Shown here: positions 26,950-64,000 of the stretch, one piece after another
Numbering within the stretch: the stretch's first letter is position 1
Layout of the letters: each line of letters opens with the position of its first letter
DNA from: a virus
Lineage: Duplodnaviria; Heunggongvirae; Uroviricota; Caudoviricetes
Direction: 5' to 3' (one strand)
Virus record (IMG/VR): IMGVR_UViG_3300023371_000005
Length of the DNA: 64,000 nt
Notes under the pieces: generated by a model
Told to the model about the DNA's origin: nothing
The model's input: the letters and a program-made list of their open reading frames with translations, nothing else
Database searches by the model: none
Program-made: the position numbers and the translations under genes

Positions 26950-26951
26950 TT

Positions 26952-29749: not shown

Positions 29750-29778
29750 ATTATATCATATTTTTTATAAAAAATCAA
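29750..29778 (-). promoter_or_regulatory. promoter TTGATT-17-TATAAT (minus)
   Basis: Motif. Confidence 0.6.
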
Positions 29779-29781
29779 AAA

Positions 29782-29805
29782 AGTCCCTCTGAACGCAGAG
29801 GGACT
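29782..29805 (-). terminator. hairpin terminator
   Basis: Stem agtccctctg-aacg-cagagggact. Confidence 0.6.
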
Positions 29806-29812
29806 CTCAATA

Positions 29813-30097
29813 TTACTTGATAAATGTTTCGCAGAACGTCTCATATAAGGATTTTGCGAAAATCCAACAAACTTTGAATACGAACCAAATCATCCAGCCT
29901 ATCCAGCCAATGACTACAATTCCGGCGATAACTACGCCGACAGAAGCAGGAATGACAAGGAATAGAGCTTCGAGAAAAGAGGCTACAAGCCAGATTGCTG
30001 CTCCGACTAGGGCAAAGCCAAAAATGGTACAAACCATTGCCAGACAGGCAAGTAAAAATTTAATCATTGGGAATTTCAATCCTTTCAAAGACCTCAC
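29813..30097 (-). CDS. small multi-pass membrane protein
   Basis: Hydrophobic ORF. Confidence 0.4.
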   Translation of the reverse strand: MRSLKGLKFPMIKFLLACLAMVCTIFGFALVGAAIWLVASFLEALFLVIPASVGVVIAGIVVIGWIGWMIWFVFKVCWIFAKSLYETFCETFIK

Positions 30098-30851
30098 AAA
30101 TATCTTCGGTAAAACGCAATTTTACGGGGAAATAACCTTTGCGCTCGACCTCATCACGATTGATTATTACGATATTATCAGAGTGGAACCAATCAGGTAA
30201 GAAATTTGCGGGAGCGACTGCCAAAGAAGTGCCAACGATAATCATAAGGTCAGCTGCAGATACATGAGCCATTGCCATTTGCCACTGAAGACCCGGTAAA
30301 CTTTCGCCATATAGGGTGATATCGGGGCGGATAGTGAACTCGCCGCCGCATAGAGGGCACCTCGGCACACCATTTTTATCATCATAGTTGCCATCCATTA
30401 CATCTTCTGGAATGAATGTCTCACATAAGCAGCCAGGGCAGTACCAGTCAGCCATGGTGCCATGAATTGTGTCAACTACTTTTGAACCGGCTTTTTCATG
30501 GAGTCCGTCAATATTCTGAGTAACCACAGACACAGTTCTTGCTTGCTGCAGCTCAGAGATTTTTTTATGAGCGATGTTCGGTTCAGCATTGCGAAAATCC
30601 ATATTATTTCGTAAATACTGGAAGAACCGCTCAGGTTCCATTTTGAGGCAGGTGTGGCTCAACATATATTCTGGCTCATCTTCTTCACTGGTATTGTATA
30701 AGCCATTATTGCTGCGGAAGTCCGGAATGCCGGAGCCGGTAGAGATACCAGCTCCGGTCAAAAATACGATACGCTTGGCTCCCGCAATCATTTCATTCAA
30801 TTGTTTTATGCGTTCGTCAAAGCTTTCCATTTTAGTTATCTCCTGTTCCAT
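30060..30851 (-). CDS. cobB: Sir2-family NAD-dependent deacylase/ADP-ribosyltransferase (sirtuin)
   Basis: GAGISTGSGIPDFR, Zn module CPGC...CPLCGG, GTSLAV. Confidence 0.85.
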   Translation of the reverse strand: MEQEITKMESFDERIKQLNEMIAGAKRIVFLTGAGISTGSGIPDFRSNNGLYNTSEEDEPEYMLSHTCLKMEPERFFQYLRNNMDFRNAEPNIAHKKISELQQARTVSVVTQNIDGLHEKAGSKVVDTIHGTMADWYCPGCLCETFIPEDVMDGNYDDKNGVPRCPLCGGEFTIRPDITLYGESLPGLQWQMAMAHVSAADLMIIVGTSLAVAPANFLPDWFHSDNIVIINRDEVERKGYFPVKLRFTEDICEVFERIEIPND

Positions 30852-31341
30852 TCAGCTGGGCTTCCAGAACGACGTCGCCCTGAGCCATAGCCTTATCCAC
30901 AGCCATCTTAGCAGACTTCATATCACAACCCTGCTTTTTCAAGAAAGGCATTACATTCTTTACGATAACGCCCTTATTGCCAGAAGTGATAGAAACAGCA
31001 TTGCAGATACCCCAGTAATTGACCATCTTGACGATTTCATCAACATCGTCAATGACCTTGGGAGCATATTCCTCCACAATAGCCAACTTTTCGCGGTATT
31101 CAGCCTTGCGGGCCGCATACTTCTCACCGTCGGGGCAGGTATCGATCATTTCTTTTACAGTCTTGACATACTTTGTCAATACTTCATCAACCAGTGTATC
31201 AGTGATTGCAACACGGGTTTTGTCGGCAGTAGCAGCCTTGTCAATGGAAGCTACCATATCGGCGATAGTTAGACGACGAAGTTTATTACCCTCTTTTAAA
31301 GCTGTCGTCATATCAGCTTTGAGGGTTTCATACTTATCCAT
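30832..31341 (-). CDS. GatB/YqeY-domain protein
   Basis: MDKYETLKADMTTALKEGNKLRRLTIADMVASI resembles the YqeY domain N-terminus; SD before ATG 31341. Confidence 0.55.
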   Translation of the reverse strand: MDKYETLKADMTTALKEGNKLRRLTIADMVASIDKAATADKTRVAITDTLVDEVLTKYVKTVKEMIDTCPDGEKYAARKAEYREKLAIVEEYAPKVIDDVDEIVKMVNYWGICNAVSITSGNKGVIVKNVMPFLKKQGCDMKSAKMAVDKAMAQGDVVLEAQLNGTGDN

Positions 31342-31358
31342 TGGAGTATGCTCCTTTC

Positions 31359-32189
31359 TTAGTGAAATATAGTAATCCAACCGCCCCAGCCAGCACCGTC
31401 ATAGGGACCATCAATCAGCATCTGGGGGAAAATGGATTCAGTGGTATAGATATGCTTGATCAGACCGGACTCGGGCAGATCGCCAAGAGTAACAGTTTCT
31501 TCCAGGTGGGTCACATACAGACTTACGCTCTTGGCACCTGCTTCCAGCAAAGCCTTTGCGGAGTGGTAGAAAGTGCCACCTCTGGAGCAAATATCATCAA
31601 CAATCAGAACATCTTTGTCTTTGATGTTCTCGGCATTGATAATATCTAGACCTAAAATCTTGCCAGTAGCCCAGTCTCGCTTTTTCATACCAAAAGCATA
31701 AGGTAGAGGGGACTTATCAGAGTAGCGCTTCATTGCGCCCTCATCGGGGAAGAACAGAACTTCAGCCTTGGAAGCCAGAGTAGCCTTATGAATATAAGGC
31801 TCAACACCAGTATCCTCTACTCGATCAAGCAGAGCCAGGCTCACGTTGCTATGGGCGTCCCGCACCCAAACAATCTTGAAGTTCAGAGAGTTAATAATCT
31901 CGCAGAAATACTTCAGAGTAAAGACGTCAGAATCAGACTTTACTCGATCCATGCGAGCGTGGGGAATGTAGGGCATATCCAGAACAACATCGGTGTTGCC
32001 AAAGTGGCGGTCGATATGACGCTTCACGCAGATTAGAGTGAAGAGTTCGCTATCGTCTTCATAAAGCCATTCCACCTTGATGGCGCCTCTGTTATCAAAC
32101 ATCTCTTCTGGATTGAGCTTGATAAGCAAAGAGTGATCGGGGAACATGGACTGACCGCTACGAATAGAAATATTACCTACTCTAATCAT
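31359..32189 (-). CDS. PRPP-synthetase-family pyrophosphokinase (Prs/Adps-like)
   Basis: PRTase type-I motif VLIVDDICSRGGT and N-domain segment PYIPHARMDR. Confidence 0.7.
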   Translation of the reverse strand: MIRVGNISIRSGQSMFPDHSLLIKLNPEEMFDNRGAIKVEWLYEDDSELFTLICVKRHIDRHFGNTDVVLDMPYIPHARMDRVKSDSDVFTLKYFCEIINSLNFKIVWVRDAHSNVSLALLDRVEDTGVEPYIHKATLASKAEVLFFPDEGAMKRYSDKSPLPYAFGMKKRDWATGKILGLDIINAENIKDKDVLIVDDICSRGGTFYHSAKALLEAGAKSVSLYVTHLEETVTLGDLPESGLIKHIYTTESIFPQMLIDGPYDGAGWGGWITIFH

Positions 32190-32201
32190 TGGCTATCCTC
32201 C

Positions 32202-32810
32202 TTAGATAATGTTGATCTGGCACAGCTTCATTGCTTCCAGGGCGGTCTTGTGGGACTCAGGAGTCACGCAAGCGCAGCAGTCAGCAACGACATTGACAGG
32301 AACTTCGGGCAGAGTTGCCTTACACAGAATTGCATTGGACAGGACGCAGATGCCAGTGCATACGCCCATCAGAGTGATTTCCTCGATTTCAAAGCGGTCA
32401 TTCATATCATACAGAATATTCTGCAGTTCAACAGAGCCAAAAGTAGGCTTCTTGACGCGGATGGGGTTCTCGTCATAAACGGGATATGCATCATAACCGG
32501 ACATATAGCGATTTTCGCCCTGGGCATGATGAATCCAGGCTTCAAAGACTTCATCGACGATGCCATAGCCAGCGGTGCCTTCGATGCAATGAGGAACGGG
32601 CAGGTTCTTACCTTCCAGAGTATTCATATAGTCATCGGTATGAGTATCCTTGGTGAAGATGATAGCGGTATTGGGATCAGCAAGTTGATGAATGGTTTCC
32701 GCAACCAGAGGAACGATAGCCTGGGCTTCGGGAGTACCCAGTGCGCCATCGATAAAGTCCCTCTGCATATCAACGACAATGACTACCTTAATCTTTTCCA
32801 TATTTTTCAA
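32202..32810 (-). CDS. pncA: isochorismatase-family hydrolase, probable nicotinamidase
   Basis: VVIVVDMQRDF and catalytic Cys segment LMGVCTGICV. Confidence 0.65.
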   Translation of the reverse strand: MKNMEKIKVVIVVDMQRDFIDGALGTPEAQAIVPLVAETIHQLADPNTAIIFTKDTHTDDYMNTLEGKNLPVPHCIEGTAGYGIVDEVFEAWIHHAQGENRYMSGYDAYPVYDENPIRVKKPTFGSVELQNILYDMNDRFEIEEITLMGVCTGICVLSNAILCKATLPEVPVNVVADCCACVTPESHKTALEAMKLCQINII

Positions 32811-32835
32811 TTCCTTCCTTATTCTTTATACATAT

Positions 32836-32864
32836 ATTATAACATATTTTTTTTGAAAAATCAA
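32836..32864 (-). promoter_or_regulatory. promoter TTGATT-17-TATAAT (minus)
   Basis: Motif. Confidence 0.6.
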
Positions 32865-32867
32865 AAA

Positions 32868-32892
32868 AGGCTCTCTTGTTCAGAGAGCCTTT
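32868..32892 (-). terminator. hairpin terminator
   Basis: Stem ggctctctt-gttc-agagagcc. Confidence 0.6.
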
Positions 32893-32896
32893 TCTT

Positions 32897-33529
32897 TTAG
32901 TTCATGCGCCAGTAGTTAGTGTTGCGGTTTTCCTCAAATGTGTCGCGCAGTAAAATCTCCTTGGAAGACCAAGTCAGATATACGAAGTCTGCGGTCATGG
33001 GGCGAGGAACGCCATTATGCCAGCTCTTTAGTTCGGTCAAAGCGATGTCATACAGCTTAGCCAGCACGGGGTTATCATCGGAATAACCCATCCACTGCTT
33101 AGCCTGCTGACATACAGCCTGGATTTCTCCGGGATAAGCTCTGTTGTCAACACGGTTCAGAATACACCAGACGATTGCGCGCAGGTCAGAATCCTTGTGG
33201 TCAGGCTTGTACATACCATACATAACCCGTGCGATCCACTCGGCTTCCAGTTCAATCTGTTCTACATCGCCACCATATTCGTAATATTTCTCAATCGCAG
33301 CGATTTCAGATTCATATTCATCTCGCAGCTCAATTCGCAGAGCAATCATGCCCTCCTGGTGGAGTTCATTCAGTTCTTTGATTTGATTTTTATACTTGAC
33401 TCGCTGGGAAATTGAAGTAATCATGATGGTGATTACGAGAATCAAGACATAAACTGTGATTCTCTGAATCTGGGCGATTTGACGACGACGGCGCTTAGTA
33501 GAATTACTCTTCTTAGTGTACTTACCCAT
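32897..33529 (-). CDS. membrane-anchored SleB-like cell-wall hydrolase (Hydrolase_2)
   Basis: N-terminal basic segment plus transmembrane helix; C-terminal motif WIARVMYGM...AIVWCILNRV resembles spore cortex-lytic/cell-wall hydrolase family. Confidence 0.5.
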   Translation of the reverse strand: MGKYTKKSNSTKRRRRQIAQIQRITVYVLILVITIMITSISQRVKYKNQIKELNELHQEGMIALRIELRDEYESEIAAIEKYYEYGGDVEQIELEAEWIARVMYGMYKPDHKDSDLRAIVWCILNRVDNRAYPGEIQAVCQQAKQWMGYSDDNPVLAKLYDIALTELKSWHNGVPRPMTADFVYLTWSSKEILLRDTFEENRNTNYWRMN

Positions 33530-33569
33530 AGTATCCTCTCCATTCATATCTCTTATTCTTTACATATAT

Positions 33570-44522: not shown

Positions 44523-44526
44523 ATAT

Positions 44527-45250
44527 TACACTCCTAAATCTTGTAAAGTTAAAGTATCTCGTTTTTCATAAGGAATACGAATAAGTTTAATATTATGATT
44601 TTTACAGTATTCATTTTTTAACTTATCACGATACTATCTTTCTTCTAAAGTTTCGGAATTGTCCCATGGAGTATAATCGTTACTATGTTGACGTCCATCA
44701 AATTCTATTAAATGAGACAAGACATTATTACTATCAAAAATAGCAAAATCAAATCGTAGTCTTTTTTTATTTCTTAAATCTGAGAAGCTATATTCTTTAG
44801 CATAGTTAATATTATTTTCTCTTAATAATAATTCAATATTTTCTTCGCCAATAGAACGATTAGCACATCCACAACTTGTTGTATGTAATCTTGTTAGATT
44901 TGAGCCGAATATAGATACTATATTACCGCATTCACATTCACAAATCCACTTACTTTTCCATCCATTTTCTTCTGTGCTAATATAATTATTATCTGGACCT
45001 TTAACGGTAAGTTTTCCATAAACATTTCCCGTTAAATCATTTCTTTGAGCATGACATTTTCCACAACTCATATTTTGTCCAGATTTTATTCCACTATTTA
45101 GATTGCAGCTATTAACACTAGTCAAATTACCGCAAGAACAGCGACAAATCCAATAAATATTATGACCTTTTCCCCGAGGTTTTGTTTCATCTATATATAA
45201 TGGTTGTAGCTATCCTATTGTTTCAATAGAAAAATCTCTTGGTTTTCTTC
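44527..45250 (-). mobile_element. free-standing homing-endonuclease-like gene (paralog 2) with two in-frame TAGs (about 45212 and 44634-44636); TTG start
   Basis: Past TAG 44634 the frame continues into KLIRIPY, matching LIRIPY at the paralog-1 C-terminus. Upstream of TAG 45212 is another WICRCSCGN repeat and an MGRKPRD start, paralleling MGRKIDL in paralog 1. Confidence 0.55.
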
Positions 45251-55431: not shown

Positions 55432-56313
55432 TTACCCTTTGATGCATTGACTTAATAAAGTTAGACGAACTTGATTTTGATATTCAGGTTTGACTAAATA
55501 ATAAATATAACTTTCCATAACTTGCGCGATTGGCATAGTGCGGCCTTCAATCTTAAAATGAGAAAAGCCCATGTCAGTATATTTACCATATAAATCATCA
55601 ACCTTAATAACAGAAGGGAATTCTAAAATATCATAGAAGCCTCTGCGGTAAGTGGGGCAACCGCCCGCAAGCTCTCCATCAGTTTCTGGATTCATCATTT
55701 CAAAATTAAGTTGATGCTTGGCAATAGTTTCATAATGCTTTTGTCGTAATTTACAATTAGGATGACAATAAGCATTTATAAGTAATTCAATTTTATCTTT
55801 ATGTTTAATGCCATCTAGGAAATCAAAATTATAGTTATCTCTATAATCAATAACTACTAAATCATATTGTTCAGTAGCTTCATTGATTTTACCTAAATCT
55901 CTTTCACATCTTGTTGTAGATAAAATATATTTGAAATCTGGATAATTTTTTCTTAGATACTCTTCTAATATGGGAGAGTTGATAATTACTTCATTCATTC
56001 CATTATTAGCTAATTCCATTGTTAGATTACAATAAGTATCATACAAATGCTTTTCTTCTAAGAGAGGATTAGTATAAGTATATCGTAAAGGAATATCAGC
56101 ATCATTGAGTAAAGCAATTGTTTCTTTCATGCGAGTAGAAGAAGTCGAACCACACAGTAAGCGACCTCCATTCCAAATTGCTCCTGGAAAAGTTCCATAG
56201 ATACCACCAAATTCAATTCCTTCGTGGAAATACTCTGGATGAAAATGATGTAACTGTAACAAAGATAAATTTAAGTGCAATAAAGTATCGAAATCAGGCA
56301 AATAAAATTTCAT
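55432..56313 (-). CDS. hypothetical protein
   Basis: 293-aa ORF with its own promoter. Confidence 0.4.
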   Translation of the reverse strand: MKFYLPDFDTLLHLNLSLLQLHHFHPEYFHEGIEFGGIYGTFPGAIWNGGRLLCGSTSSTRMKETIALLNDADIPLRYTYTNPLLEEKHLYDTYCNLTMELANNGMNEVIINSPILEEYLRKNYPDFKYILSTTRCERDLGKINEATEQYDLVVIDYRDNYNFDFLDGIKHKDKIELLINAYCHPNCKLRQKHYETIAKHQLNFEMMNPETDGELAGGCPTYRRGFYDILEFPSVIKVDDLYGKYTDMGFSHFKIEGRTMPIAQVMESYIYYLVKPEYQNQVRLTLLSQCIKG

Positions 56314-56349
56314 TATTTAAGCTCCTTTGTCATTATTCTTTTTATTACA

Positions 56350-56378
56350 ATTATATCATTTTTTTTCAGTAAAATCAA
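56350..56378 (-). promoter_or_regulatory. promoter TTGATT-17-TATAAT (minus)
   Basis: Motif. Confidence 0.6.
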
Positions 56379-56403
56379 CTCATGAAGGAGAGTAAATAAA
56401 AAA

Positions 56404-56451
56404 ATCTCCTTTCTCACTTATTTATTTTCTAAATAATATGAGAAAGGAGAT
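56404..56451 (-). terminator. terminator with 13-bp inverted repeat
   Basis: atctcctttctca ... tgagaaaggagat followed by a T-run on the minus strand. Confidence 0.5.
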
Positions 56452-56462
56452 AAATCAATTAA

Positions 56463-56648
56463 TCAATATTCACCAGTGTGATCAATACCACACAATTTAT
56501 CGACGCTCTCAGTTAAAGCATCAATCATTTCTCTTAACCAGTAGTCATTGTCATCTGACCACTTTCTTAAATATAGAAGCTCCTTTTCAAGAATTTCTAT
56601 TCTCTTCTATTGTTCTTTAATAATTTCATATAATTCTTCAATGGTCAT
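56463..56648 (-). CDS. small coiled-coil protein (61 aa) with one in-frame TAG
   Basis: SD AAAGGAGG before ATG 56648; the frame is open across the TAG to TGA at 56463. Confidence 0.45.
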
Positions 56649-56675
56649 AAACAATGACCTCCTTTATATGTTATT

Positions 56676-56704
56676 AGGGTAGAACCTAAATAAGACTCTA
56701 CCCT
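56676..56704. other. stable hairpin flanking the DGR TR2 module
   Basis: Stem agggtaga-acctaaataagact-ctaccct; a corresponding hairpin sits at 59715..59749 in the TR1 module. Confidence 0.5.
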
Positions 56705-56716
56705 TATTTTTATTTT

Positions 56717-56865
56717 TGATTACGAGAGCGTTCATTATAAAATAAATTACTAACACCCAATCATCGGAAGAATTTTGCCAAGAGGCAAGGTTTATATACT
56801 TGATAAAATACTGCAAATATATAAAACTCTCAAAGAGAGTTATAAATAAAGTCAATAACAAAACA
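56717..56865 (-). ncRNA. conserved about 150-nt element immediately 3' (minus-strand sense) of TR2; paralog of 59757..59900; candidate DGR spacer/priming RNA
   Basis: About 85 percent identical to the TR1-flanking element, including the hairpin aactctcaaagagagtt. Confidence 0.5.
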
Positions 56866-56867
56866 GT

Positions 56868-56994
56868 GGCCACCGATATTCGCATTCGCATTCGACGTGG
56901 AATTGTTCAAATTCAGATAGAAAGGACCAGTATTCAGCCTGTTATTCCAATTACTACTGAAGTTCGTGACGTGAGACGAATTGCAATTCGTATC
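56868..56994 (-). repeat. DGR template repeat TR2 (cognate of VR2)
   Basis: 127-nt near-copy of 57079..57204; differences fall at positions where this copy has A on the coding (minus) strand; lies outside any real gene. Confidence 0.8.
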
Positions 56995-57061
56995 GTGGAA
57001 TAAATATTTTATCGTATAAGTAACCCATATATTCAAAGAATTTTACTATTCTTTAAATTTT

Positions 57062-58255
57062 TTATAATTTTTGGATGCGGCCACCGACATTCGCACTCGC
57101 ACTCGACGCGGAATCGTTCAAACGCAGAAAGAAAGGACCAGAAGCCAGCCCGTTAGCCCAATAACCACCGAAGCGCGCGACGCGAGACGAATTGCAACCC
57201 GCATAATCAGAGAAGTAAGTTGTACCACTACCTCCTTTAGCCGTTATAACAAATCCGCCTTCACTAGTACCTAAACAATTGGTATAATATCCATAAGTAT
57301 TACTAGTGAGTCCAGAAGCATTGGTAAATTCATAATTAGTGCCAGAATCATCAAAAGCTCCAGTAGTAGTTAAATAATTTCTAGAAGCATCAGTAACAAT
57401 GCCATCACACCATTTAGAAATATTACCCCAAAAATTTTCAATTCCCGCAAATTTCATACCTTCAGTATCCGTTCCACCATAATCCAATCCTTGATTATTC
57501 ATTGTTCCAGTAATAATAGGAGCAGAATTAGAACTATTAGTATAACCATATCCGAGAGCAGTTTGTCCATTCAAAGATTTATATTTTATAACATACATGG
57601 CCTATAAATAAACTAATTGATAGTAAGCAAACTACTCATAACCATCGCCATTTAGTTGGGCTGCCGCACGAAACTCACTAATAGTTTTAGAAGCCGTAGG
57701 GGTTTTATTACTTAAACTACGTAATTTACCATCACTATCAATATAGCCATCATAAGCACCAGTATAAAATGTATCTAAATCTTTATTATGCGTATGTGCG
57801 TAATAAGTAAAATCTGTATTAGCAATATCATTTGTAAAACTAACAGTAACTTTATTATCGTCGCTTTTAGTAATTCTTAATCCTCTTCTTGGAAAAGCAA
57901 TCATTACATCTCCTGCACTTCCACTTTCAATATCTACTGGATTACCATTAATATCTTCAGCGTAATTATTAGGATTTAATTTTACAACTTCTACTCCATC
58001 TTTCATAAGAACGGGATAATGTCCGAAAAATTCATCCCAAGCAGAAGATTTTGCTTCCATGGTAAATGCGTCATCCTCATAAGAACAACAAGTGTCAGGA
58101 TTAGAATCATTTAAATCAATAATAACAGTCATTACTTTTACCGGCTCTTCATCTAGTTTTGTTCCAATTTCAATTAACGCATCTTCAATATGCTCCACAT
58201 GAGAAGCACACCACTTATCAACAAAATCATGTAAATTCATTCTTTCATAAGGCAT
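57062..58255 (-). CDS. DGR target protein 2 (FGE-sulfatase/C-type-lectin-fold, variable C-terminus), 398 codons with two in-frame TAGs (57632-57634, 57602-57604)
   Basis: Track ORFs 57632..58255 and 57062..57598 share one frame; the segment GDGYE-TAG-FAYYQLVYL-TAG-AMYVIKYK aligns to GDTYE-Q-FAWFQLIYL-Q-AMFIMKYK of paralog 60070..61296 (CAA at both positions); GN(I)W and RFGG(Y)W motifs. Confidence 0.8.
57079..57204 (-). repeat. DGR variable repeat VR2 at the 3' end of target 2
   Basis: See TR2. Confidence 0.8.
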
Positions 58256-58383
58256 AAATTCACATCCTATTCTTACTTATTTAATATTTTATCAATTTCC
58301 TCTTGTAAATTTGGAAATCTCAAAATTACTGCATCATAATCTAATTTTCCTTCTTTAATTCTCATAGCTAAGTATTCAGCCAT
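58256..58383 (-). CDS. small ORF (about 36 aa) between RT region and target 2
   Basis: ATG overlaps the upstream stop; weak. Confidence 0.2.
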
Positions 58384-58387
58384 AAAA

Positions 58388-58618
58388 TTACACCCCCATA
58401 ATAATAGCATCTAAAGCATTTTTCATAATCTCATTTTCATCAGACATTTTCTTTAGATACTCGTCTTTGCTATATTGAATCTCTTCATATTCATAATAAA
58501 CATGACCTTTTTCATCAACTTTTTCGATAATATTATTATGAATATAAACAGTAGTTTTTCCAATCACTAAAGGTTTTGCCTGCTCGGCACTACCTCGCAC
58601 GATACCCATATTTTTCAT
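58388..58618 (-). CDS. hypothetical protein (76 aa) overlapping the RT 3' end
   Basis: Good SD AGGAGA before the ATG; not Avd-like (acidic). Confidence 0.4.
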   Translation of the reverse strand: MKNMGIVRGSAEQAKPLVIGKTTVYIHNNIIEKVDEKGHVYYEYEEIQYSKDEYLKKMSDENEIMKNALDAIIMGV

Positions 58619-59681
58619 ATCTTTGTATCTCCTTTCCTTGAATAACGCATTTTTTATATATCTCCATAGAACGATAAAATGTTCTAAAATATTTATTAAT
58701 AAAATTAGACATTGTTGTCTAATCTATTATCCCTTTATAAGAGAAAAAAGCACAAAATTCGTGATAAGTTGGTAAAAATATTTCATCTCGATAATAAGAA
58801 TTATATAACATTTTTATTATAAATTTTCTCACCTTTTTATAAGTTCGTTTACGCAAAATAATTCTATTATGAAAATGTCTATATCCTACAAAATCTATTC
58901 CCCTAATATCTACAGGAAAAATCTAATAATTATCTTTTATTTCTAATTTTAATTCTTCTTGAAGATATTTTTTTATTTGATAAAAATATTTCCATAACTA
59001 TTTTTTATTATTTCCTAAAATTACTATATCATCCATATAACGAATAATATATTTAATTTTCAATTCTTCTTTACACCAATGATCAAAAAATGATAAATAA
59101 TAATTTGATAAATATTGTGATAGATAAGAACCAATAGGTAAACCATTATTACAACTTTCAATAATTTTATCTAAAAGCAATAAAGTCTATTTATCTTTAA
59201 TTTTTTTACGAATTAGTTTTTGTAAAATAGTTTGATTAATATTTGGATAAAATTTTTTTATATCAATTTTCAAGCAATACTAAGTATTTTTAACATCTTT
59301 TAGATATTTTTTAGTAAGATTAGTTGCTCGTGTAATTCCGGCATTTTTTATAGAAGCACAACTATGATAACAAAAATGTTTTACTAAAGTTGGTTCTAAC
59401 TATAACATAATGGCCCATTGAATAATTCTATCTGGATAATAAGGAAGTTTCATAATTTCTCGCTCTTTTCCACTATCCTAAATTATTGAATGCTTATAGA
59501 GTGAAACCTAATATTCATTATTTAATAATATTTGTTGAATCTATTTTAGATTATTATCTAAATCTTTTTCAACTTTTTTTACTGAACGATAATGAGATTT
59601 ATCCTATTTAGCCATTTTGTGTGCTAACCGCAAATTATCCATATTACATATTTTATCAAAAATATTATTTAGACGTTTCAT
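58536..59681 (-). CDS. DGR reverse transcriptase, 381 aa, with 11 in-frame TAG codons
   Basis: RT motifs across one open frame: DRIIQWA (motif 2), IDIKKFYPNI (3), DGR-specific GLPIGSYLSQYLSNYYL with SQ rather than QG (4), YIRYMDDIVIL (5), IFPVDIRGIDFVGYRH (7); only TAG interrupts it, no TAA or TGA until 58536; very AT-rich. Confidence 0.8.
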
Positions 59682-59714
59682 ATTAATTCCTTCTATAATT
59701 ATTGTTATTTTTAT

Positions 59715-59749
59715 AAGGTTTTAGTAAAAAATATTTTTACTAAAACCTT
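59715..59749. other. perfect 16-bp hairpin between TR1 module and RT start
   Basis: aaggttttagtaaaaa-tat-tttttactaaaacctt. Confidence 0.55.
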
Positions 59750-59756
59750 ATTTTAT

Positions 59757-59900
59757 TTTGACTGAGAGAACGTTCATTATAATAAAATAATTACTAATAC
59801 CCATTATCAGAAGAATTTTACCAAGAGGTAAGGTTTATGTATTTAGAAAAATATTATATATAAAACTCTCAAAGAGAGTTATAAATAAAATAACAAAAGA
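59757..59900 (-). ncRNA. conserved about 150-nt element 3' of TR1 (paralog of 56717..56865)
   Basis: See 56717..56865. Confidence 0.5.
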
Positions 59901-59906
59901 GTGCGT

Positions 59907-60036
59907 GCCGATATTCGAATCCGTATTGTCGGGTGTTTCATTCACATTGAAGATGAAAGGTCCAGTATTCAGACTATTATTCCAATAACCGCTGAAATTC
60001 GCTACGTTACTGGGATTGACATTCGAATTATCGGAA
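59907..60036 (-). repeat. DGR template repeat TR1 (cognate of VR1)
   Basis: 130-nt alignment to 60091..60220 with about 31 mismatches, all at positions where TR1 has A on the coding strand. Confidence 0.85.
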
Positions 60037-60069
60037 GTATATTTTTCCATACAATTAACCTATATTATT

Positions 60070-61296
60070 TTATAGTTTTTGGACGCGCGCGCCGATATTC
60101 GAAGCCGCATCGTCGGGCGTACCATCCACACCGAAGAGGAAAGGCCCAGCAACCAGACCATCATCCCAACAACCGCCGAAACGCGCCACGCGACCGGGAT
60201 AGACATCCGAAGCATCGGAAAAATAAGTTGTCTCGCTACCAGCACCGATCATTTTCTTTAACGCAAAACCGCCTTCAGAAGTGGCACAAGGATAAATTAA
60301 ATAATCCTCTAAATAACCATTTTCGGCAACTTGTTCTGTATCAACTTCCGCAGTAATTTCGTATCCTTCACCATAGTCGTTGAAATTATTAGTTGTAATT
60401 TTATAATTGCAATTATCATCAGAGACAATGCCATCAACCCAATTCCAAATATTACCCCAGAAATTTTCAATACCAGCAAATTTCATACCTTGAGTCATAT
60501 CTGTGTTATCTCCGTCATAGGGAATACCCCAGTCCAAACTGCAAGTATTCATAATGCCAGAAGCTATTGCTTCCTCTCCATTTACATTACCACATCCAAG
60601 AGAAGATTGGCCATTAATTGATTTATACTTCATAATAAACATAGCTTGTAAATAAATTAATTGAAACCAAGCAAATTGTTCATAAGTATCTCCATTGTTG
60701 TGTGCGGCCGCACGTGCTTCACCGATTGTTATATTACAAGCAGGAGTTTTACCACTCAAACTACGTAATTTATTATTTTCATCAATATACCCATTATAAG
60801 CACCGATATAAAATGTATCTAATGAATTATTATTAAAAGTATGAGCGTAATATTCAAAATTATCAGGATCTTCAATATTGGTAAAACTAATTCTTATTTT
60901 CATATCAATCTCATTTCCTGTAATTCTTAATCCTCTTCTTGGAAAAGCAATCATTACATCTCCTGCACTTCCACTTTCAATATCTACTGGATTACCATTA
61001 ATATCTTCAGCGTAATTATTAGGATTTAATTTTACAACTTCTACTCCATCTTTCATAAGAACGGGATAATGTCCGAAAAATTCATCCCAAGCACTTGCGC
61101 CCGCAGACATTTCGCTAGCATCATCCTCATAAGAGCAACAAGTTAATGGATCTGAATTAGATAAATCAATAACAACAGTCATAGTCTTACCAAATGCTTT
61201 ATTATATAATCTTACTAATTCATCTTCAATATGTTCTACATGAGAAGCACACCACTTATCTACTCCATCTTGAAGATTCATTCGTTCATAACTCAT
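60070..61296 (-). CDS. DGR target protein 1 (FGE-sulfatase/C-type-lectin-fold), 408 aa, no internal TAG
   Basis: FWGNIWNWVDG and RVARFGGCW motifs; VR at codons about 360-405; GC-rich IMH-like gacgcgcgcgcc at the 3' end. Confidence 0.8.
   Translation of the reverse strand: MSYERMNLQDGVDKWCASHVEHIEDELVRLYNKAFGKTMTVVIDLSNSDPLTCCSYEDDASEMSAGASAWDEFFGHYPVLMKDGVEVVKLNPNNYAEDINGNPVDIESGSAGDVMIAFPRRGLRITGNEIDMKIRISFTNIEDPDNFEYYAHTFNNNSLDTFYIGAYNGYIDENNKLRSLSGKTPACNITIGEARAAAHNNGDTYEQFAWFQLIYLQAMFIMKYKSINGQSSLGCGNVNGEEAIASGIMNTCSLDWGIPYDGDNTDMTQGMKFAGIENFWGNIWNWVDGIVSDDNCNYKITTNNFNDYGEGYEITAEVDTEQVAENGYLEDYLIYPCATSEGGFALKKMIGAGSETTYFSDASDVYPGRVARFGGCWDDGLVAGPFLFGVDGTPDDAASNIGARVQKL
60091..60220 (-). 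repeat. DGR variable repeat VR1
   Basis: See TR1. Confidence 0.85.
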
Positions 61297-61302
61297 TTAT
61301 TT

Positions 61303-61731
61303 TCACTCTCCTAAAATAAAATCACCAAGTAAACCTTCTCCAAGTAAAGAAGTTCCTCCAGTCAAAGCAACTGTAATTATCTAGCCATTTTGAATTGAAA
61401 GAGAATAAGGCTAATTTGTTATTGAATCAATAATAATTAATGACTTTGCGGAACGAGTAGTTACCATTCCATTTTCATCAATAATAACATATTCATTGGG
61501 ATTACCAATAATTTGATTCTATTTTTGATTCCAAGAATCTCTTTCTCCAACTTGTAAATGCACTTCCTAATTATTAATATGATTATTTACATATTCAATA
61601 TCAGCTTTAGTGTCATCAATAGCATTGATAATATTTACTAAGGTATCATTATTCGGATAGTCCTACATATTAATTTTAGACCATAAATAAATAAGACCAT
61701 CAAAGTCTAAAAATGATTTTGTTTTAGACAT
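61303..61731 (-). CDS. hypothetical structural-module protein, 142 aa, five in-frame TAGs
   Basis: SD AAGGAGGAAG before ATG 61731; frame open to TGA 61303 apart from 5 TAG. Confidence 0.5.
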
Positions 61732-61784
61732 AGAACTTCCTCCTTATATATTTTAACATAAAAATTTTATAAAGTCAATAAAAA

Positions 61785-61817
61785 AAGGGAGAGGGACAGT
61801 TATTTTATCCCTCTCCC
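61785..61817 (-). terminator. hairpin terminator
   Basis: Stem agggagaggga-cagttatttta-tccctctccct; a TTGACT-17-TAAAAT promoter lies just downstream on the minus strand. Confidence 0.55.
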
Positions 61818-61832
61818 TTAAATTATTTTAAA

Positions 61833-63062
61833 TTAAGCGTTAGCAATAGCAGCTTCAATTTCAGCAGTAGTTAAAGCAATTACTCTAGTATTAATTTCAT
61901 TATCAGTATATGCCTTAGCATCAATTAATGCTTGTGCGGCAGCACCGTATGCATCATAAGTATTGGCGGGAATAGTATCCTGCTTCTTTGCTAATTCCTC
62001 ATCAACATAAGTCTTATCGGCCTTTTTAGCAATTTCAGTAGCATTAGCGCTAACAGCATTCTGACGAGCAGTAACTTCAGCCTCTAAATCAGCCTGAGAA
62101 GCCTTTGAAGCGATAGCGTTAGACAATTCAGTCTTATCAGCAGTCTTTAGATAATCGCCTTCAACAACAGCCAAACGACTATCAACGCCATTAATAGCAT
62201 CAGACAATTCAGTCTTATCAGCAGCTTTTAGATAGTCATCTTCAACAGCCTTAACACGACTAGCCAAAGCAGTTAAATCAGCAGCCTTAGCATAATCACC
62301 AATAGACAAAGCAGTAATAGCGTCAGCAACATAAGCGCTAACAGTCTTATCACCAGTATCAACCTTACTCTGCAAAGCTGCAATAGCTTCATTCATTGCA
62401 GAAGCATCATCTGGATGATCCTGAATCCAAGCAGCGATTTCAGCTAGAGTATCTAGAGACTCCTTAGCGTCCTCTGTGATTAACTGCTTAGCCAATTCTT
62501 CGTTAGCAATGGCACGAACAGACTTACCAGCGTCATCGCCCTCTAGAGTAGCAACACGACCAACTAAAGCAGTGTCATCATAAGTAGCAGCAGCCTGAGC
62601 GTCAGCGATCATCTGTACAACAGTCTTACCATCAGCAACTTCACCGACCAAAGATTCTAGTGCGTCAACTTCACCCTGTGCAGTGACAGCCTTGTCATCA
62701 GCAGCCTTTGCGGCAGCAGCATTAGCTTCTTCTGCAGCCTTAGCACGAAGAATTTCAGTATCTAAAGCAGCTTTAACAGAAGCAGCAGACTCAGAAGAAC
62801 CACCATTAGCAGCATTTAGAGTTTCTTCTGCTTTCTTGTTAATATAAGCAACAATAGACTGTTGATCAGTATAACCTTCTGGAATTTCACCAACATAAGA
62901 ACGAAGATCTTCAATTTCTAATCCACGAGCAGTAGCCTCGCTTGCAATAGCTTCCGCAATTGCCTCATCTCGAGCAGTAGCTTCAGCAGCAATTTTTTCA
63001 GCGATCTTGGACCATAAAGTACTTACGCCCTATTGGTCTAAAAATTTCTTTAAATCAGCCAT
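61833..63062 (-). CDS. Ala/Glu/Lys-rich coiled-coil structural protein (possible fiber or decoration protein), 409 aa, one in-frame TAG at 63030-63032
   Basis: SD AAAGGAGAT before ATG 63062; same frame as track ORF 61833..62651; repeats (GD)YLK(A/T)ADKTELS. Confidence 0.55.
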
Positions 63063-63092
63063 TTTTATTATCTCCTTTATTTTTTATTTTTT

Positions 63093-63554
63093 TTATTCGC
63101 AAATCTCAAGAATTTCTGTATGAGTTAAAGGAACTAATTTATTGAATAATTCTTGAGCATATGCCTTTGTAGCGTATTCTTCCAAAGCAATTTCTGGAAT
63201 CTCAATTTTATTTAGAGCTTCTTGTAATTGTTCTTGAGTAACTAAGTCACTATCTACAAGCACTTCATACTCATATAGCTCTTCATTCCATTGATATAAC
63301 TTTTTCTCTTGGAATGCTTTATAGATGACATTTACATCACCAATTGCAGGAAAATTATAATGAGTATTAGCATTAATAACTAATACTTTATCTTCTCCAA
63401 GATACTTTAAATCCAACCATTCATTGACACCGTCTCCAATTTTTAATTTACCAGTATCAATTTCAAATCCAGGCTCACCAGGGGCTAAAACAGGATTTAA
63501 AGTGATCCAACTTGAAGCTTTACCTCTTTTTAATTGAATTGTATATGTAGCCAT
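63093..63554 (-). CDS. putative tail/structural protein
   Basis: N-terminus TYTIQLKRGKASSWITLNPVLAPGEPGFEIDTGKLKIGDGVNEW resembles a conserved phage tail-fiber N-terminal domain; SD GAGGAGG. Confidence 0.4.
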   Translation of the reverse strand: MATYTIQLKRGKASSWITLNPVLAPGEPGFEIDTGKLKIGDGVNEWLDLKYLGEDKVLVINANTHYNFPAIGDVNVIYKAFQEKKLYQWNEELYEYEVLVDSDLVTQEQLQEALNKIEIPEIALEEYATKAYAQELFNKLVPLTHTEILEICE

Positions 63555-63569
63555 ACTTTTCCTCCTCAA

Positions 63570-63860
63570 TTAAAAAGGATCAGAGCCATCAATAGAGCCG
63601 CCGTCATAAATAAGATCACCAGATGGGGGATTATTTCCACCAGAATTACCTCCAGAAGAGCTTGACATACAATATGGATTAATTTCAATCCATTGCTTAG
63701 AGCCATTTAACATATAATATTTAGAACTACTAATAATAAAAATAGTGCTACCAGGAGTTAATCTATTTTTATCTAATTGTTTTAAATCATCAATAGTATC
63801 TAAATCAAAATGCTTAATACCATATGTTATATGACCACTATTTGAATGAATATTAACCAT
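63570..63860 (-). CDS. small Gly/Ser-rich structural-module protein
   Basis: SD AAAAGGAGGG before the ATG. Confidence 0.35.
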   Translation of the reverse strand: MVNIHSNSGHITYGIKHFDLDTIDDLKQLDKNRLTPGSTIFIISSSKYYMLNGSKQWIEINPYCMSSSSGGNSGGNNPPSGDLIYDGGSIDGSDPF

Positions 63861-63935
63861 TATAACCCTCCTTTTTATGTAAGTAAATATCTTCATAATA
63901 TTATAAAAAATTCATTGAGCATCTTAATACTTTTA

Positions 63936-64000
63936 GTCCAAAAATTTCTAAATCACTTTTTACTTTTGGGTTTTCGGCACTTTCGACTGGCACCGACCGG
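63936..64000. repeat. second copy of the about 65-nt GC-rich element (see 37497..37566); truncated by window end
   Basis: Shared core aaaatttctaaatc(a/g)ctttt. Confidence 0.35.

What the first reader, a model, noticed from the sequence alone, without database searches (positions are those of the whole stretch)
58536..59681. DGR reverse transcriptase is heavily amber-recoded (11 TAG in 381 codons) and compositionally distinct
The RT gene has the highest TAG density in the window. It is also far more AT-rich than neighbouring genes, with long A/T runs and AAA/AAT/ATT-dominated codons. Under code 15 it translates to a complete RT; under code 11 it is a string of fragments. I infer that RT synthesis, and hence mutagenic retrohoming, is gated by availability of the amber suppressor, probably late in infection. 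The compositional shift also suggests the RT-TR module was acquired from another recoded genome. The RT 3' end overlaps a separate small gene (58388..58618) in another frame by about 80 nt.
Basis: partly seen in the sequence, partly recalled or inferred. Interest (0 to 1): 0.6.

Follow-up and report, generated by a model that had tools for sequence, protein, structure and literature searches.

The report
Amber-recoded, AT-rich DGR reverse transcriptase
This is a working reverse transcriptase gene of a phage hypermutation cassette, written with 11 "stop" codons that the phage's own suppressor tRNA reads as glutamine; it is a clear example of a known kind of recoding, not a new mechanism.

Summary
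The minus-strand gene 59681..58536 has 11 in-frame TAG codons, no TAA or TGA, and 22.9% GC, against 40% for the window. It is the lowest-GC gene here. It holds a third of all in-frame TAGs in 2% of the codons. One detail is wrong: orf142 (61303..61731) is slightly denser in TAG.

It is a genuine DGR reverse transcriptase, and it is active. Near-identical phages from two other samples differ in both variable repeats at 50 sites, all opposite template adenines. Both template repeats are unchanged.

TAG means Gln. It falls on invariant Gln positions and swaps with CAA among relatives. A tRNA(CUA) lies about 9.8 kb past the window end, on contigs 100% identical to the window where they overlap.

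Dependence on the suppressor is real, but late timing and adaptive gating are untested. The RT's TAG:CAA ratio is about what its base composition predicts, so it may simply escape the TAG avoidance seen in other genes. Low GC is a family-wide trait of phage DGR RT genes (40 of 42 loci), so it is not evidence of recent transfer. The cassette does sit at a different position in a related phage. The 83-nt overlap with a small conserved gene is real.

The parts
58536..59681 (-). DGR reverse transcriptase gene: 381 codons plus TAA, with 11 in-frame TAG read as Gln
   Evidence: Translation and stop census. Pfam RVT_1 E 2.5e-19. phrog_1423 'Reverse transcriptase' E 5.9e-101. Best PDB match 8ub7_A 'Reverse transcriptase', 328 aa, E 2.7e-32. 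Invariant IGSYLSQ and DD motifs. TAG codon first bases: 59606, 59543, 59510, 59480, 59402, 59282, 59189, 59000, 58925, 58721, 58592.
58388..58618 (-). orf76, a small conserved gene that overlaps the RT 3' end by 83 nt (58536-58618) in another frame
   Evidence: tblastn finds it at 64-100% identity, starting 83 nt before the RT stop, in all 8 relatives. It carries in-frame TAG in L083, L085 and L089 where others have Gln. phrog_18126, function unknown. Homologues lie directly after the RT in the distant loci L001 and L008.
58273..58383 (-). orf36, a conserved 36-aa gene directly after orf76
   Evidence: Called as a gene in seven of the eight related loci and found by tblastn in seven, including L091 (47-100% identity); no match in L090. 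phrog_8908 E 3e-13. GC 22-26% in relatives.
59682..59902 (-). AT-rich spacer between TR1 and the RT, with a conserved box and hairpins; inferred to be the non-template part of the DGR RNA
   Evidence: The core ATAAACCTTACCTCTTGGTAAAA...GGGTATTAGTAA is nearly invariant in 7 relatives. A 78%-identical copy follows TR2 (family D8).
59713..59751 (-). Perfect 18-bp hairpin just upstream of the RT ribosome-binding site
   Evidence: dG -18.7 kcal/mol, z -8.6. All 7 relatives have a 10-15-bp hairpin at the same place with unrelated stem sequences.
59903..60041 (-). Template repeat TR1
   Evidence: Repeat family D1. 31 of 32 TR1/VR1 mismatches fall at TR adenines. 0 differences against L081 and L082.
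60087..60225 (-). Variable repeat VR1, at the 3' end of target gene 1
   Evidence: 26 sites differ among the window, L081 and L082. All 26 lie opposite TR1 adenines.
60070..61296 (-). DGR target gene 1, a tail protein of 408 aa with 0 TAG
   Evidence: phrog_5302 'tail protein' E 1.7e-49. ORF table.
61303..61731 (-). orf142, first gene of the cassette, with 5 in-frame TAG; the densest TAG gene in the window
   Evidence: 5 TAG in 142 codons, GC 27.7%. 96% identical, with TAG at the same five sites, in L081. A gene of similar size (139 aa, 4 TAG) precedes the target in L083 and L085, but its homology to orf142 was not shown: tblastn found no match there.
57062..58255 (-). DGR target gene 2, a paralogue of target 1 (397 aa, 2 TAG)
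   Evidence: Both TAG codons align with CAA-encoded Gln in target 1...YEqFAYYQLVYLqAM... against ...YEQFAWFQLIYLQAM....
57079..57204 (-). Variable repeat VR2
   Evidence: 24 sites differ among the window, L081 and L082. All 24 lie opposite TR2 adenines.
56868..56993 (-). Template repeat TR2, a second and distinct TR
   Evidence: 24 of 24 TR2/VR2 mismatches fall at TR adenines. 0 differences against L081 and L082.
56757..56867 (-). Spacer-like element after TR2, with the same hairpin and conserved box as after TR1
   Evidence: An identical hairpin AACTCTCTTTGAGAGTT lies at 56841..56825 and at 59880..59864. The box is 78% identical, with a compensatory TTGCC/GGCAA change in place of TTACC/GGTAA.

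Best explanation
The gene encodes the working reverse transcriptase of a diversity-generating retroelement. The element belongs to an uncultured jumbo phage, with contigs of about 200-210 kb, that reads TAG as glutamine.

Shown:
- The frame is kept open for TAA and TGA only.
- TAG sits at family-invariant Gln positions and swaps with CAA among relatives.
- The DGR is currently diversifying both of its target genes.
- The same genome carries a tRNA with anticodon CUA about 14 kb upstream of the RT start, on the same strand.

It follows that each RT molecule needs 11 successful suppression events. RT output is therefore tied to suppressor-tRNA activity, and is probably held low, because yield scales as per-codon efficiency to the 11th power.

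Inferred:
- The RT lies in a tail-fibre block where TAG is about 5 times more frequent than in the replication and metabolism block (excluding the RT itself), which is almost TAG-free. It is therefore probably made after the code switch, at low dose.
- The high TAG count is best read as an absence of TAG avoidance in a very AT-rich gene. The TAG:CAA ratio is about what base composition predicts. The sequence does not require positive selection for TAG.
- The AT-richness is a standing trait of this RT family and not a mark of recent transfer.
For: Frame and code:
- The frame is open by selection: 11 TAG, 0 TAA/TGA, P = 8e-15.
- TAG = Gln. TAG94 and TAG253 align with Gln that is at least 90% conserved in standard-code homologues. 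Invariant Q88 is CAA here and TAG in L083, L087 and L089.
- 12 of 14 Gln-conserved columns mix TAG with CAA or CAG across 7 clade members. This includes the hallmark SQ Gln189, which is TAG in L090.
- Both TAGs of target 2 align with Gln of target 1.

DGR identity and activity:
- RVT_1 hit, and the best solved-structure match is 8ub7_A 'Reverse transcriptase', E 2.7e-32.
- TR/VR mismatches are A-specific: 31 of 32 and 24 of 24.
- Against L081 and L082 (98.3% nt identity), VR1 has 26 differences and VR2 has 24, all at TR-A sites. TR1 and TR2 have 0. The rest of the cassette up to TR2 has 0-1.2 differences per 100 nt.

Suppressor:
- L106 is 100% identical to window 60953-64000. L109 is 100% identical to L106 over 10,242 bp.
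- L109 7673-7747 is a tRNA with anticodon CUA (ARAGORN; Rfam tRNA 51.5 bits).
- A CUA tRNA fills the same array slot in relatives L110-L114, and one lies between tRNA-Ser(UGA) and tRNA-Gly(UCC) in L102.

Distribution of TAG:
- 0.71 TAG per 1000 codons below 51200 (replication, nucleotide and NAD genes), 3.4 per 1000 above 51200 excluding the RT, and 28.8 per 1000 in the RT.
- The RT TAG share exceeds that of its neighbours in 10 of 10 TAG-recoded DGR loci.

Neutral-share argument:
- The RT has 11 TAG, 10 CAA and 0 CAG. Composition predicts 0.49, 0.38 and 0.13.
- Pooled over the clade the counts are 65, 65 and 3.

AT-richness as a family trait:
- Clade RTs are 23-30% GC and below the rest of their locus in every case (six of them also). 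In 40 of 42 distant loci the RT is lower in GC than its flanks.
Against: - No expression data exist. Timing (late) and dose (low) are inferences from gene order and from the published model for recoded phages.
- The efficiency of suppression, and whether the phage disables host RF1, are unknown. If suppression is near-complete, 11 TAGs cost little and there is no throttle.
- AT-richness alone does not explain the TAG count. Thirteen other genes with GC3 below 0.25 pool to 12 TAG, 74 CAA and 22 CAG. Against these the RT gives Fisher p = 6.5e-5. Something gene-specific is therefore at work, and it could be positive selection.
- The suppressor tRNA lies outside the window. It was seen only on contigs that match the window's right end at 100% identity. 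The region between the two varies among strains: L104 and L106 differ in gene content there.
- The amino-acid identity of the tRNA was not established directly. ARAGORN labels it 'Pyl' from the anticodon alone.
Confidence: 0.62

Rival explanations
1. Adaptive gate. Selection actively maintains many TAG codons in the RT. As a result, mutagenic retrohoming switches on only when the amber suppressor accumulates late in infection, and its rate is set by suppressor level.
For: - RT TAG share exceeds that of its neighbours in 10 of 10 TAG-recoded DGR loci, individually significant (p < 0.05) in 7.
- 6-11 TAGs are kept in every member of a clade that has diverged to 64% aa identity, even though individual positions turn over.
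- The RT exceeds other low-GC3 genes, p = 6.5e-5.
- Replication genes are almost TAG-free. This matches the published model that recoding partitions early from late genes (bioRxiv 10.1101/2021.08.26.457843).
Against: - TAG:CAA is about 1:1, which is what composition alone predicts.
- Only TAG364 is strongly conserved in position. That codon is constrained by the overlapping orf76 frame, where GG[T AG]T encodes Gly-Ser.
- There are no expression data.
- Other AT-rich mobile-type genes are also TAG-rich: a GIY-YIG gene in L099 has 9 TAG in 251 codons. This points to a gene-class or composition effect and not to an RT-specific design.
Confidence: 0.3
2. Recent horizontal acquisition. The RT, or the RT-TR module, was imported from a more AT-rich, more heavily TAG-recoded genome and has not yet ameliorated.
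For: - There is a sharp GC trough limited to 58273-59900.
- In L083 the cassette lies between homologues of window 17802-18209 and 18410-18649, about 40 kb from its position here. The cassette is therefore mobile, or the genomes are rearranged.
- Heavily TAG-recoded DGR RTs exist in other phages: L054 and L061 have 12 TAG each.
Against: - The same GC deficit and TAG load occur in every clade member across 64-99% aa identity. It is a stable state and not a transient one.
- RT divergence from L083 (69%) falls within the range of backbone proteins (PhoH 81%, others 50-73%).
- The TRs and target genes that travel with the RT are not compositionally deviant.
- An RT with lower GC than its flanks is the rule in 40 of 42 unrelated phage DGR loci.
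Confidence: 0.1
3. Degenerate pseudogene. The TAGs are real stops, and the RT is dead or made only as fragments.
For: Under code 11 the gene breaks into ORFs of at most 60 aa. No tRNA gene lies within the window.
Against: - There are zero TAA or TGA codons in 381 AT-rich codons, P = 8e-15.
- All catalytic and DGR motifs are intact.
- Both VRs are being diversified at TR adenines in natural populations, while the TRs stay identical.
- A suppressor tRNA(CUA) is present in the same genome.
Confidence: 0.01

Closest known systems
Bordetella phage BPP-1 DGR (bRT, Avd, TR, Mtd), the prototype diversity-generating retroelement
   Same: - The RT is homologous. The best solved-structure match is 8ub7_A 'Reverse transcriptase' of 328 aa, E 2.7e-32, with the shared IGSxxSQ and YMDD motifs. 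From my own knowledge I take 8ub7 to be bRT; the tool output gives only the molecule name.
- The target is a tail protein with the VR at its 3' end.
- The TR lies next to the RT.
- Mutagenesis is adenine-specific.
   Different: - No Avd homologue was detected.
- One RT serves two distinct TR-spacer units and two paralogous targets.
- Small genes orf76 and orf36 follow the RT, and orf76 overlaps it by 83 nt.
- The RT gene carries 11 TAG-encoded Gln and has 23% GC.
DGRs of stop-codon-recoded crAss-like phages (for example Zeta crAss-like phages, PMC12386605; window relatives L049, L054 and L061)
   Same: - A DGR and TAG or TGA reassignment coexist in one phage.
- Those RTs also carry many recoded stops: 8-12 TAG in L049, L054 and L061, and 7-10 TGA in L002-L007.
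- The RT is more AT-rich than its flanks.
   Different: - In those phages TAG is spread over most late genes at 10-45 per 1000 codons. Here most genes have none and the RT alone holds a third of all in-frame TAGs.
- The host phage here is an unrelated jumbo phage of about 200 kb. Its best topoisomerase match in GenBank phages is 40%.
- RT identity to crAss-like RTs is only 44-52%.
Partial code-15 recoding as a proposed regulator of late and lytic genes (Borges et al., preprint 10.1101/2021.08.26.457843)
   Same: - Replication genes are in standard code, and in-frame TAG is concentrated in the structural and tail region.
- A phage-encoded suppressor tRNA(CUA) is present.
- The genome is low in GC.
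   Different: - That study found lysis-related families to be the TAG-preferring ones. A search of the preprint text finds no occurrence of 'reverse transcriptase' or 'DGR'.
- Here the top TAG users are the DGR RT and a small tail-module gene.
phAss-1 and the proposed genus Phassvirus, 136-kb gut phages with partial TAG-to-Gln recoding (PMC10607447)
   Same: - These are large gut phages with tRNA-Sup(CTA) genes among many tRNA genes (36 in phAss-1).
- TAG occurs in only a subset of ORFs, mostly virion genes.
   Different: - No DGR is reported there: 'reverse transcriptase' and 'DGR' each occur 0 times in the text.
- No sequence relationship to the window was found. Megablast of 13 kb found nothing in the phage collection.

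Membership tests
DGR reverse transcriptase | RT (RVT_1) domain with the catalytic YxDD box | tested here: met
   Pfam RVT_1 70.3 bits, above the 29.6 cut-off. YMDD is present, with D217 and D218 invariant across 21 homologues.
DGR reverse transcriptase | DGR-type motif 4, [I/L]GxxxSQ | tested here: met
   I183 G184 S185 Y186 L187 S188 Q189 are invariant in alignment A1. They align with IGSLTSQ of PDB 8ub7_A.
DGR reverse transcriptase | An adjacent template repeat with a near-copy (VR) at the 3' end of a target gene, differing only at TR adenines | tested here: met
   TR1/VR1 has 31 of 32 mismatches at TR-A. TR2/VR2 has 24 of 24.
DGR reverse transcriptase | Ongoing adenine-specific diversification of the VR while the TR is conserved | tested here: met
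   Window against L081 and L082: 50 variable VR sites, all opposite TR adenines. There are 0 differences in 265 nt of TR.
DGR reverse transcriptase | An accessory protein such as Avd or an HRDC type (common in DGRs, not universal) | tested here: inconclusive
   Pfam, NCBIfam and PHROGs give no Avd hit for orf76, orf36 or orf142. orf76 and orf36 are conserved next to the RT but their function is unknown. No fold comparison was run.
Code 15 (TAG to Gln) recoded phage | In-frame TAG in conserved genes whose frames contain no TAA or TGA | tested here: met
   The RT has 11, orf142 has 5, the 1393-aa tail protein has 3, target 2 has 2, and others have fewer. That is 34 in-frame TAG in 80 minus-strand ORFs.
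Code 15 (TAG to Gln) recoded phage | TAG positions correspond to conserved Gln in standard-code homologues | tested here: met
   Q88, Q94, Q189 and Q253 of the RT family are each TAG in some clade members. The paralogous targets show the same. Gln is the commonest residue opposite TAG, 41 cases.
Code 15 (TAG to Gln) recoded phage | A phage-encoded suppressor tRNA with anticodon CUA | tested here: met
   It is not in the window. It is present on L108 and L109, which carry the same 99-aa protein as L106. L109 and L106 overlap the window at 100% identity. ARAGORN finds anticodon CUA and Rfam scores it 51.5 bits as a tRNA. It has a U1-U72 mismatch and G73. Charging with Gln was not tested.
Code 15 (TAG to Gln) recoded phage | TAG not used as a terminator | tested here: inconclusive
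   Outside the RT, no in-frame TAG lies closer than 21 codons to the end of its ORF, so none looks like a true stop with a short spurious extension; the RT's own last TAG (codon 364) lies 18 codons from its end, and the tail beyond it is conserved in the clade. However, the ORFs were defined by TAA and TGA, so this is indirect.
Code 15 (TAG to Gln) recoded phage | Direct evidence of Gln insertion at TAG, for example by proteomics | not testable with these tools
   This needs metaproteomics, as was done for crAss-like phages in PMC9523058.
Group II intron, retron and Drt reverse transcriptases (considered and rejected) | A score above the curated family cut-off | tested here: not met
   NCBIfam group_II_RT_mat scores 112 against a cut-off of 300. 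Drt3a scores 66.7 against 200. Retron St85 scores 56.4 against 235.

The most novel reading that the evidence does not exclude
In TAG-recoded phages the DGR reverse transcriptase is systematically the gene, or among the genes, most dependent on the suppressor tRNA. Selection keeps it that way. The code switch would then act as a translational throttle that sets when, and in what fraction of progeny, tail-fibre hypermutation happens. This would be a regulatory link between genetic-code switching and targeted mutagenesis, and it has not been described.
Probability: 0.25. Interest if true: 0.65.

Novelty: new member of a known kind. Interest (0 to 1): 0.4.

Why it matters
It gives a clean natural case showing that an 11-fold amber-interrupted gene is translated and functional. 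The proof is the ongoing adenine-specific diversification of two tail-protein genes.

It extends the picture of partial code-15 recoding to a DGR enzyme in an uncharacterised jumbo-phage lineage.

Two wider regularities came out of the checks, and I found neither stated in the papers I could search. First, phage DGR RT genes are almost always more AT-rich than their surroundings (40 of 42 loci). Second, in TAG-recoded phages they use TAG for Gln more than their neighbours do (10 of 10 loci). If the bias is selected, it ties the rate of targeted hypermutation to the phage's code switch.

On the practical side, gene callers run with code 11 will miss such RTs and so under-count DGRs in recoded phages.

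Tried and rejected
- Megablast of window 51000-64000 against 50,697 GenBank phage records found no match. tblastn of the topoisomerase gave at most 40% identity, and the RT at most 52%. No named relative was found.
- A scan of IMG/VR with the RT returned only relatives with at most 52% identity. The close clade had to be fetched through exact-protein look-ups.
- ARAGORN and Rfam found no tRNA in the window.
- Walking outwards first gave only tRNA-Cys, Met, Lys, Gly and Leu. A related phage's array of more than 12 kb had no CUA tRNA (L099).
- The suppressor turned up only after an IMG/VR scan with the 99-aa array protein.
A whole-genome TAG census of the roughly 210-kb genome could therefore not be made.
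- NCBIfam has no DGR-specific RT model, and only sub-threshold group II, Drt and retron hits appeared.
- Pfam, NCBIfam and PHROGs gave no function for orf76, orf36 or orf142.
- An amino-acid composition comparison was wrong for P0002-P0007 and for the homologue mean (the values did not match the ungapped sequences; probably gapped rows of alignment A1 overwrote them). It was redone. FYMINK content is 44.7% in the clade and 40.4% in 113 homologues.
- The published version of Borges et al. is not held, so the preprint was used.
- Rejected readings: a pseudogene; group II, retron or Drt membership; and composition as proof of recent transfer.
Full report
**1. The observation**

The feature lies on the minus strand, 59681..58536. 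Translation gives 381 sense codons ending in TAA. The frame is interrupted 11 times, always by TAG and never by TAA or TGA.

GC is 22.9%, against 40.2% for the window and 37.1% for the local flanks. The 200-nt bins from 58600 to 59799 run at 18.5-25% GC. At this base composition, TAA or TGA is expected in 8% of codons. The chance of none in 381 codons is 8e-15, and none of 20,000 shuffles stayed open. The frame is therefore kept open by selection, and TAG is treated differently from the other two stops.

AAA, TAT, ATT and AAT are the commonest codons. TAG ranks tenth. There are ten A or T runs of 6-7 bases. Under code 11 only fragments of at most 60 aa appear.

Among 80 minus-strand ORFs (19,396 codons, 34 in-frame TAG) the RT holds 11 TAGs in 2% of the codons (Fisher p = 3e-11). 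It is also the lowest-GC gene.

One claim fails. By density the RT, at 28.8 TAG per 1000 codons, is second to orf142 (61303..61731), which has 5 TAG in 142 codons, or 35 per 1000.

**2. What the gene is**

With TAG read as Gln the protein matches the following:
- Pfam RVT_1, E 2.5e-19.
- phrog_1423 'Reverse transcriptase', E 5.9e-101.
- Thousands of metagenomic RTs.
- PDB 8ub7_A, a 328-aa 'Reverse transcriptase', E 2.7e-32. It shares the IGSxxSQ and YMDD motifs. From my own knowledge I take this entry to be the Bordetella phage DGR enzyme.

Curated group II intron, retron and Drt models score far below their cut-offs.

The context settles the identity.
- Directly upstream lies TR1 (59903-60041). 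Its near-copy VR1 (60087-60225) ends a 408-aa tail-protein gene.
- Downstream lies a paralogous 397-aa target gene with VR2 (57079-57204) and its own distinct TR2 (56868-56993).
- 31 of 32 TR1/VR1 mismatches and 24 of 24 TR2/VR2 mismatches fall at TR adenines.

**3. Is it alive?**

Two contigs from other samples, L081 and L082, are 98.3% identical to the cassette.
- VR1 differs at 26 of 139 positions and VR2 at 24 of 126.
- TR1 and TR2 differ at none.
- All other cassette segments, from orf142 through TR2, differ at 0-1.2 positions per 100 nt. The stretch downstream of TR2 (56434-56867) is more divergent, at 6.7 per 100 nt.
- All 50 variable sites lie opposite TR adenines.

This is the signature of current mutagenic retrohoming into both targets. 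The RT must therefore be made, and TAG must be decoded. The opposite is seen.

**4. What TAG means, and who reads it**

- TAG94 and TAG253 align with Gln that is at least 90% conserved in standard-code homologues.
- Seven clade members with 64-99% aa identity were fetched with their DNA. In 12 of 14 Gln-conserved columns they mix TAG with CAA or CAG. Invariant Q88 and the hallmark SQ Gln189 are among these.
- The two TAGs of target 2 align with Gln of target 1.

The window has no tRNA gene. Contig L106 is identical to window 60953-64000. IMG/VR contig L109 is identical to L106 over 10,242 bp and to window 63619-64000. L109 carries a tRNA array. In it, at L109 7673-7747, is a tRNA with anticodon CUA, scoring 51.5 bits on the Rfam tRNA model, with a U1-U72 mismatch and G73.

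This places the suppressor about 9.8 kb beyond the window's right end. It is on the RT's strand, about 14 kb upstream of the RT start. A CUA tRNA holds the same slot, between tRNA-Ser(UGA) and tRNA-Leu(UAA), in relatives L110-L114. One lies between tRNA-Ser(UGA) and tRNA-Gly(UCC) in L102. The phage itself is an uncharacterised jumbo phage, with contigs of 179-211 kb.

**5. How unusual is the TAG load, and why is it there?**

- TAG is nearly absent from the replication, nucleotide and NAD-metabolism block below 51200, at 0.71 per 1000 codons.
- It is more frequent in the tail-fibre and DGR block, at 3.4 per 1000 excluding the RT.
- This is the partial-recoding pattern described for code-15 phages (preprint 10.1101/2021.08.26.457843; PMC10607447).

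The RT's Gln codons are 11 TAG, 10 CAA and 0 CAG. Its base composition predicts shares of 0.49, 0.38 and 0.13. Pooled over the clade the counts are 65 TAG, 65 CAA and 3 CAG. All other genes in the window together use 23, 200 and 316.

The RT is therefore not enriched beyond expectation. It is the gene that lacks the TAG avoidance shown by the rest of the genome.

AT-richness alone does not account for this. Thirteen other genes with GC3 below 0.25 pool to 12 TAG, 74 CAA and 22 CAG (p = 6.5e-5 against the RT).

The pattern generalises.
- Every clade member has 6-11 TAGs and 23-30% GC, with GC below the rest of its locus.
- In 10 of 10 TAG-recoded DGR loci the RT's TAG share exceeds that of its neighbours, individually significant (p < 0.05) in 7. 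Six of these loci are from the close clade and four are distant IMG/VR phages.
- Other AT-rich, mobile-type genes behave alike. The window's GIY-YIG gene has 3 TAG, and one in L099 has 9 TAG in 251 codons.

**6. Mechanism**

Shown: the RT cannot be completed without 11 suppression events, and a phage tRNA(CUA) exists.

It follows by arithmetic that full-length yield scales as per-codon efficiency to the 11th power. That gives 31% at an efficiency of 0.9 and 0.05% at 0.5.

Inferred: the RT is made only after the suppressor is active, and at low dose. This would suit an enzyme whose product mutates a receptor-binding protein.

Sequence cannot decide whether selection maintains this as a gate or merely tolerates it because little RT is needed. 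I give the tolerated or neutral reading somewhat more weight, for two reasons:
- The TAG:CAA ratio sits near the compositional expectation.
- TAG positions turn over freely. The only strongly conserved one, TAG364, is constrained by the overlapping orf76 frame.

**7. The 'acquired module' idea**

The GC trough covers only the spacer, the RT, orf76 and orf36, about 58273-59900. The TRs and both target genes have ordinary composition.

The same deficit is present in every clade member. In 42 more distant phage DGR loci the RT is lower in GC than its flanks in 40, by 5.3 points on average. Low GC is thus a standing property of this gene family and not a trace of recent import.

RT divergence from L083 (69% aa) lies within the range of backbone proteins (50-81%).

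Part of the idea does survive. In L083 the whole cassette sits between homologues of window genes at 17802-18209 and 18410-18649, about 40 kb from its position here. The cassette has therefore moved, or the genomes have been rearranged.

**8. The overlap**

ORF 58388..58618 (76 aa) overlaps the RT's last 83 nt in another frame. It is found at 64-100% identity, with the same 83-nt overlap, in all eight relatives. It carries TAG where others have Gln. It also recurs directly after the RT in two distant loci.

The RT's C-terminal tail beyond TAG364 is conserved across the clade. Both frames of the overlap are therefore coding. A 36-aa gene follows. Both small genes match PHROG families of unknown function. 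No Avd homologue was found.

**9. Comparison and verdict**

This is a member of two known kinds at once: a DGR reverse transcriptase and a gene of a partially code-15-recoded phage. DGRs in recoded phages are already documented for crAss-like phages (PMC12386605), and heavily recoded RTs exist there.

What appears to be unreported in the papers I could search:
- The RT is the outstanding TAG user in an otherwise sparsely recoded jumbo phage.
- The RT exceeds its neighbours in TAG share in 10 of 10 TAG-recoded DGR loci.
- The RT has lower GC than its flanks in 40 of 42 phage DGR loci.

I rate it a new member of a known kind, of moderate interest.

Noticed in passing
window 56757-61731: One RT serves two complete units. 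These are target 1/VR1/TR1 and target 2/VR2/TR2, with two different TR sequences (66-68% identical). Each TR is followed by its own spacer-like element. Both VRs are being diversified in natural populations. DGRs with more than one TR are uncommon.
   Followed up: partly
window 59682-59902 and 56757-56867; alignment A2: A conserved RNA-like element follows each TR. It has an identical hairpin AACTCTCTTTGAGAGTT (59880..59864 and 56841..56825). It also has a box, ATAAACCTTACCTCTTGGTAAAA...GGGTATTAGTAA, that is nearly invariant in 7 relatives. The TR2 copy carries a compensatory TTGCC/GGCAA change in place of TTACC/GGTAA. It is probably the priming or spacer part of the DGR RNA.
   Followed up: partly
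window 59713-59751; same position in L083, L087, L088, L089, L090 and L091: A perfect 10-18-bp hairpin (dG -15 to -20 kcal/mol) sits just upstream of the RT ribosome-binding site in every relative. The stem sequences are unrelated, so structure is conserved but sequence is not. No U-tract follows on the sense strand, so it is not an obvious terminator. Its role is unknown.
   Followed up: partly
window 58273-58618; L001 11149-11361; L008 11206-11430: orf76 (phrog_18126) and orf36 (phrog_8908) form a conserved small-gene pair directly after the RT. orf76-like genes also follow the RT in phages whose RT is only 47-49% identical. They may be DGR accessory proteins standing in for Avd, or tail-fibre helpers.
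   Followed up: partly
window 58590-58592: TAG364 of the RT lies inside the overlap with orf76, where it forms GG[T AG]T (Gly-Ser in orf76). It is the most conserved TAG position, present in 6 of 7 clade members. Standard-code homologues end near this point. Termination here would give an RT that is 18 aa shorter.
   Followed up: partly
beyond the window's right end: L109 1-11345, L106 1-3661: A tRNA array longer than 11 kb holds 19 tRNAs, including Gln-UUG, Gln-CUG and the CUA suppressor. It lies upstream of the tail-fibre and DGR block on the same strand. The more distant relative L102 has 35 tRNAs in 20 kb.
   Followed up: yes
window 4362-5321 and 44526-45071; L099 8717-9469: Homing-endonuclease-like genes (GIY-YIG, DUF2726-like) are also AT-rich and carry TAG. 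The window's genes have 3 and 1 TAG. A GIY-YIG gene in L099 has 9 TAG in 251 codons. TAG load seems to track mobile, AT-rich genes in general.
   Followed up: partly
window 51200-55381 compared with L081 and L104: The 99%-related strain L081/L104 lacks the 1393-aa repetitive tail-fibre-like gene (3 TAG). It goes from a 291-aa gene straight to the vault-like 832-aa gene. L104 and L106 also differ upstream: radical SAM genes in one, and an EcoRI-like methylase plus GmrSD in the other. This region is a strain-variable island.
   Followed up: no
L092, L106, L093 and L107 contig ends (window about 60950-61300): Several metagenomic contigs of this phage, including one of 202,962 bp, end inside target gene 1. 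The assemblies probably break at the duplicated, hypervariable target genes.
   Followed up: no
window 61750-61819: A strong terminator-like hairpin (61819..61785, 14 bp, followed by a T-run) and a promoter-like site (61778..61750) lie just upstream of orf142. The DGR cassette may be its own transcription unit.
   Followed up: no
window 18404-19936, 25663-33547 and 48569-51070: Gene GC is very uneven, from 23% to 53%. GC-rich genes include a flotillin/band-7-like protein and a major-vault-protein-like 833-aa protein. There is also a full NAD salvage set (NAMPT-like, NadE-like, nicotinamidase-like, sirtuin-like, PRPP-synthetase-like), a sigma-70 factor and a Thg1-like gene. These names were read from the translations by eye, apart from the vault-like Pfam hits. 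They were not checked against a family library.
   Followed up: no
L002-L007 and L058 (IMG/VR): Related DGR RT genes in other phages carry 3-10 in-frame TGA codons instead of TAG. DGR RTs therefore occur in TGA-recoded phages too.
   Followed up: no
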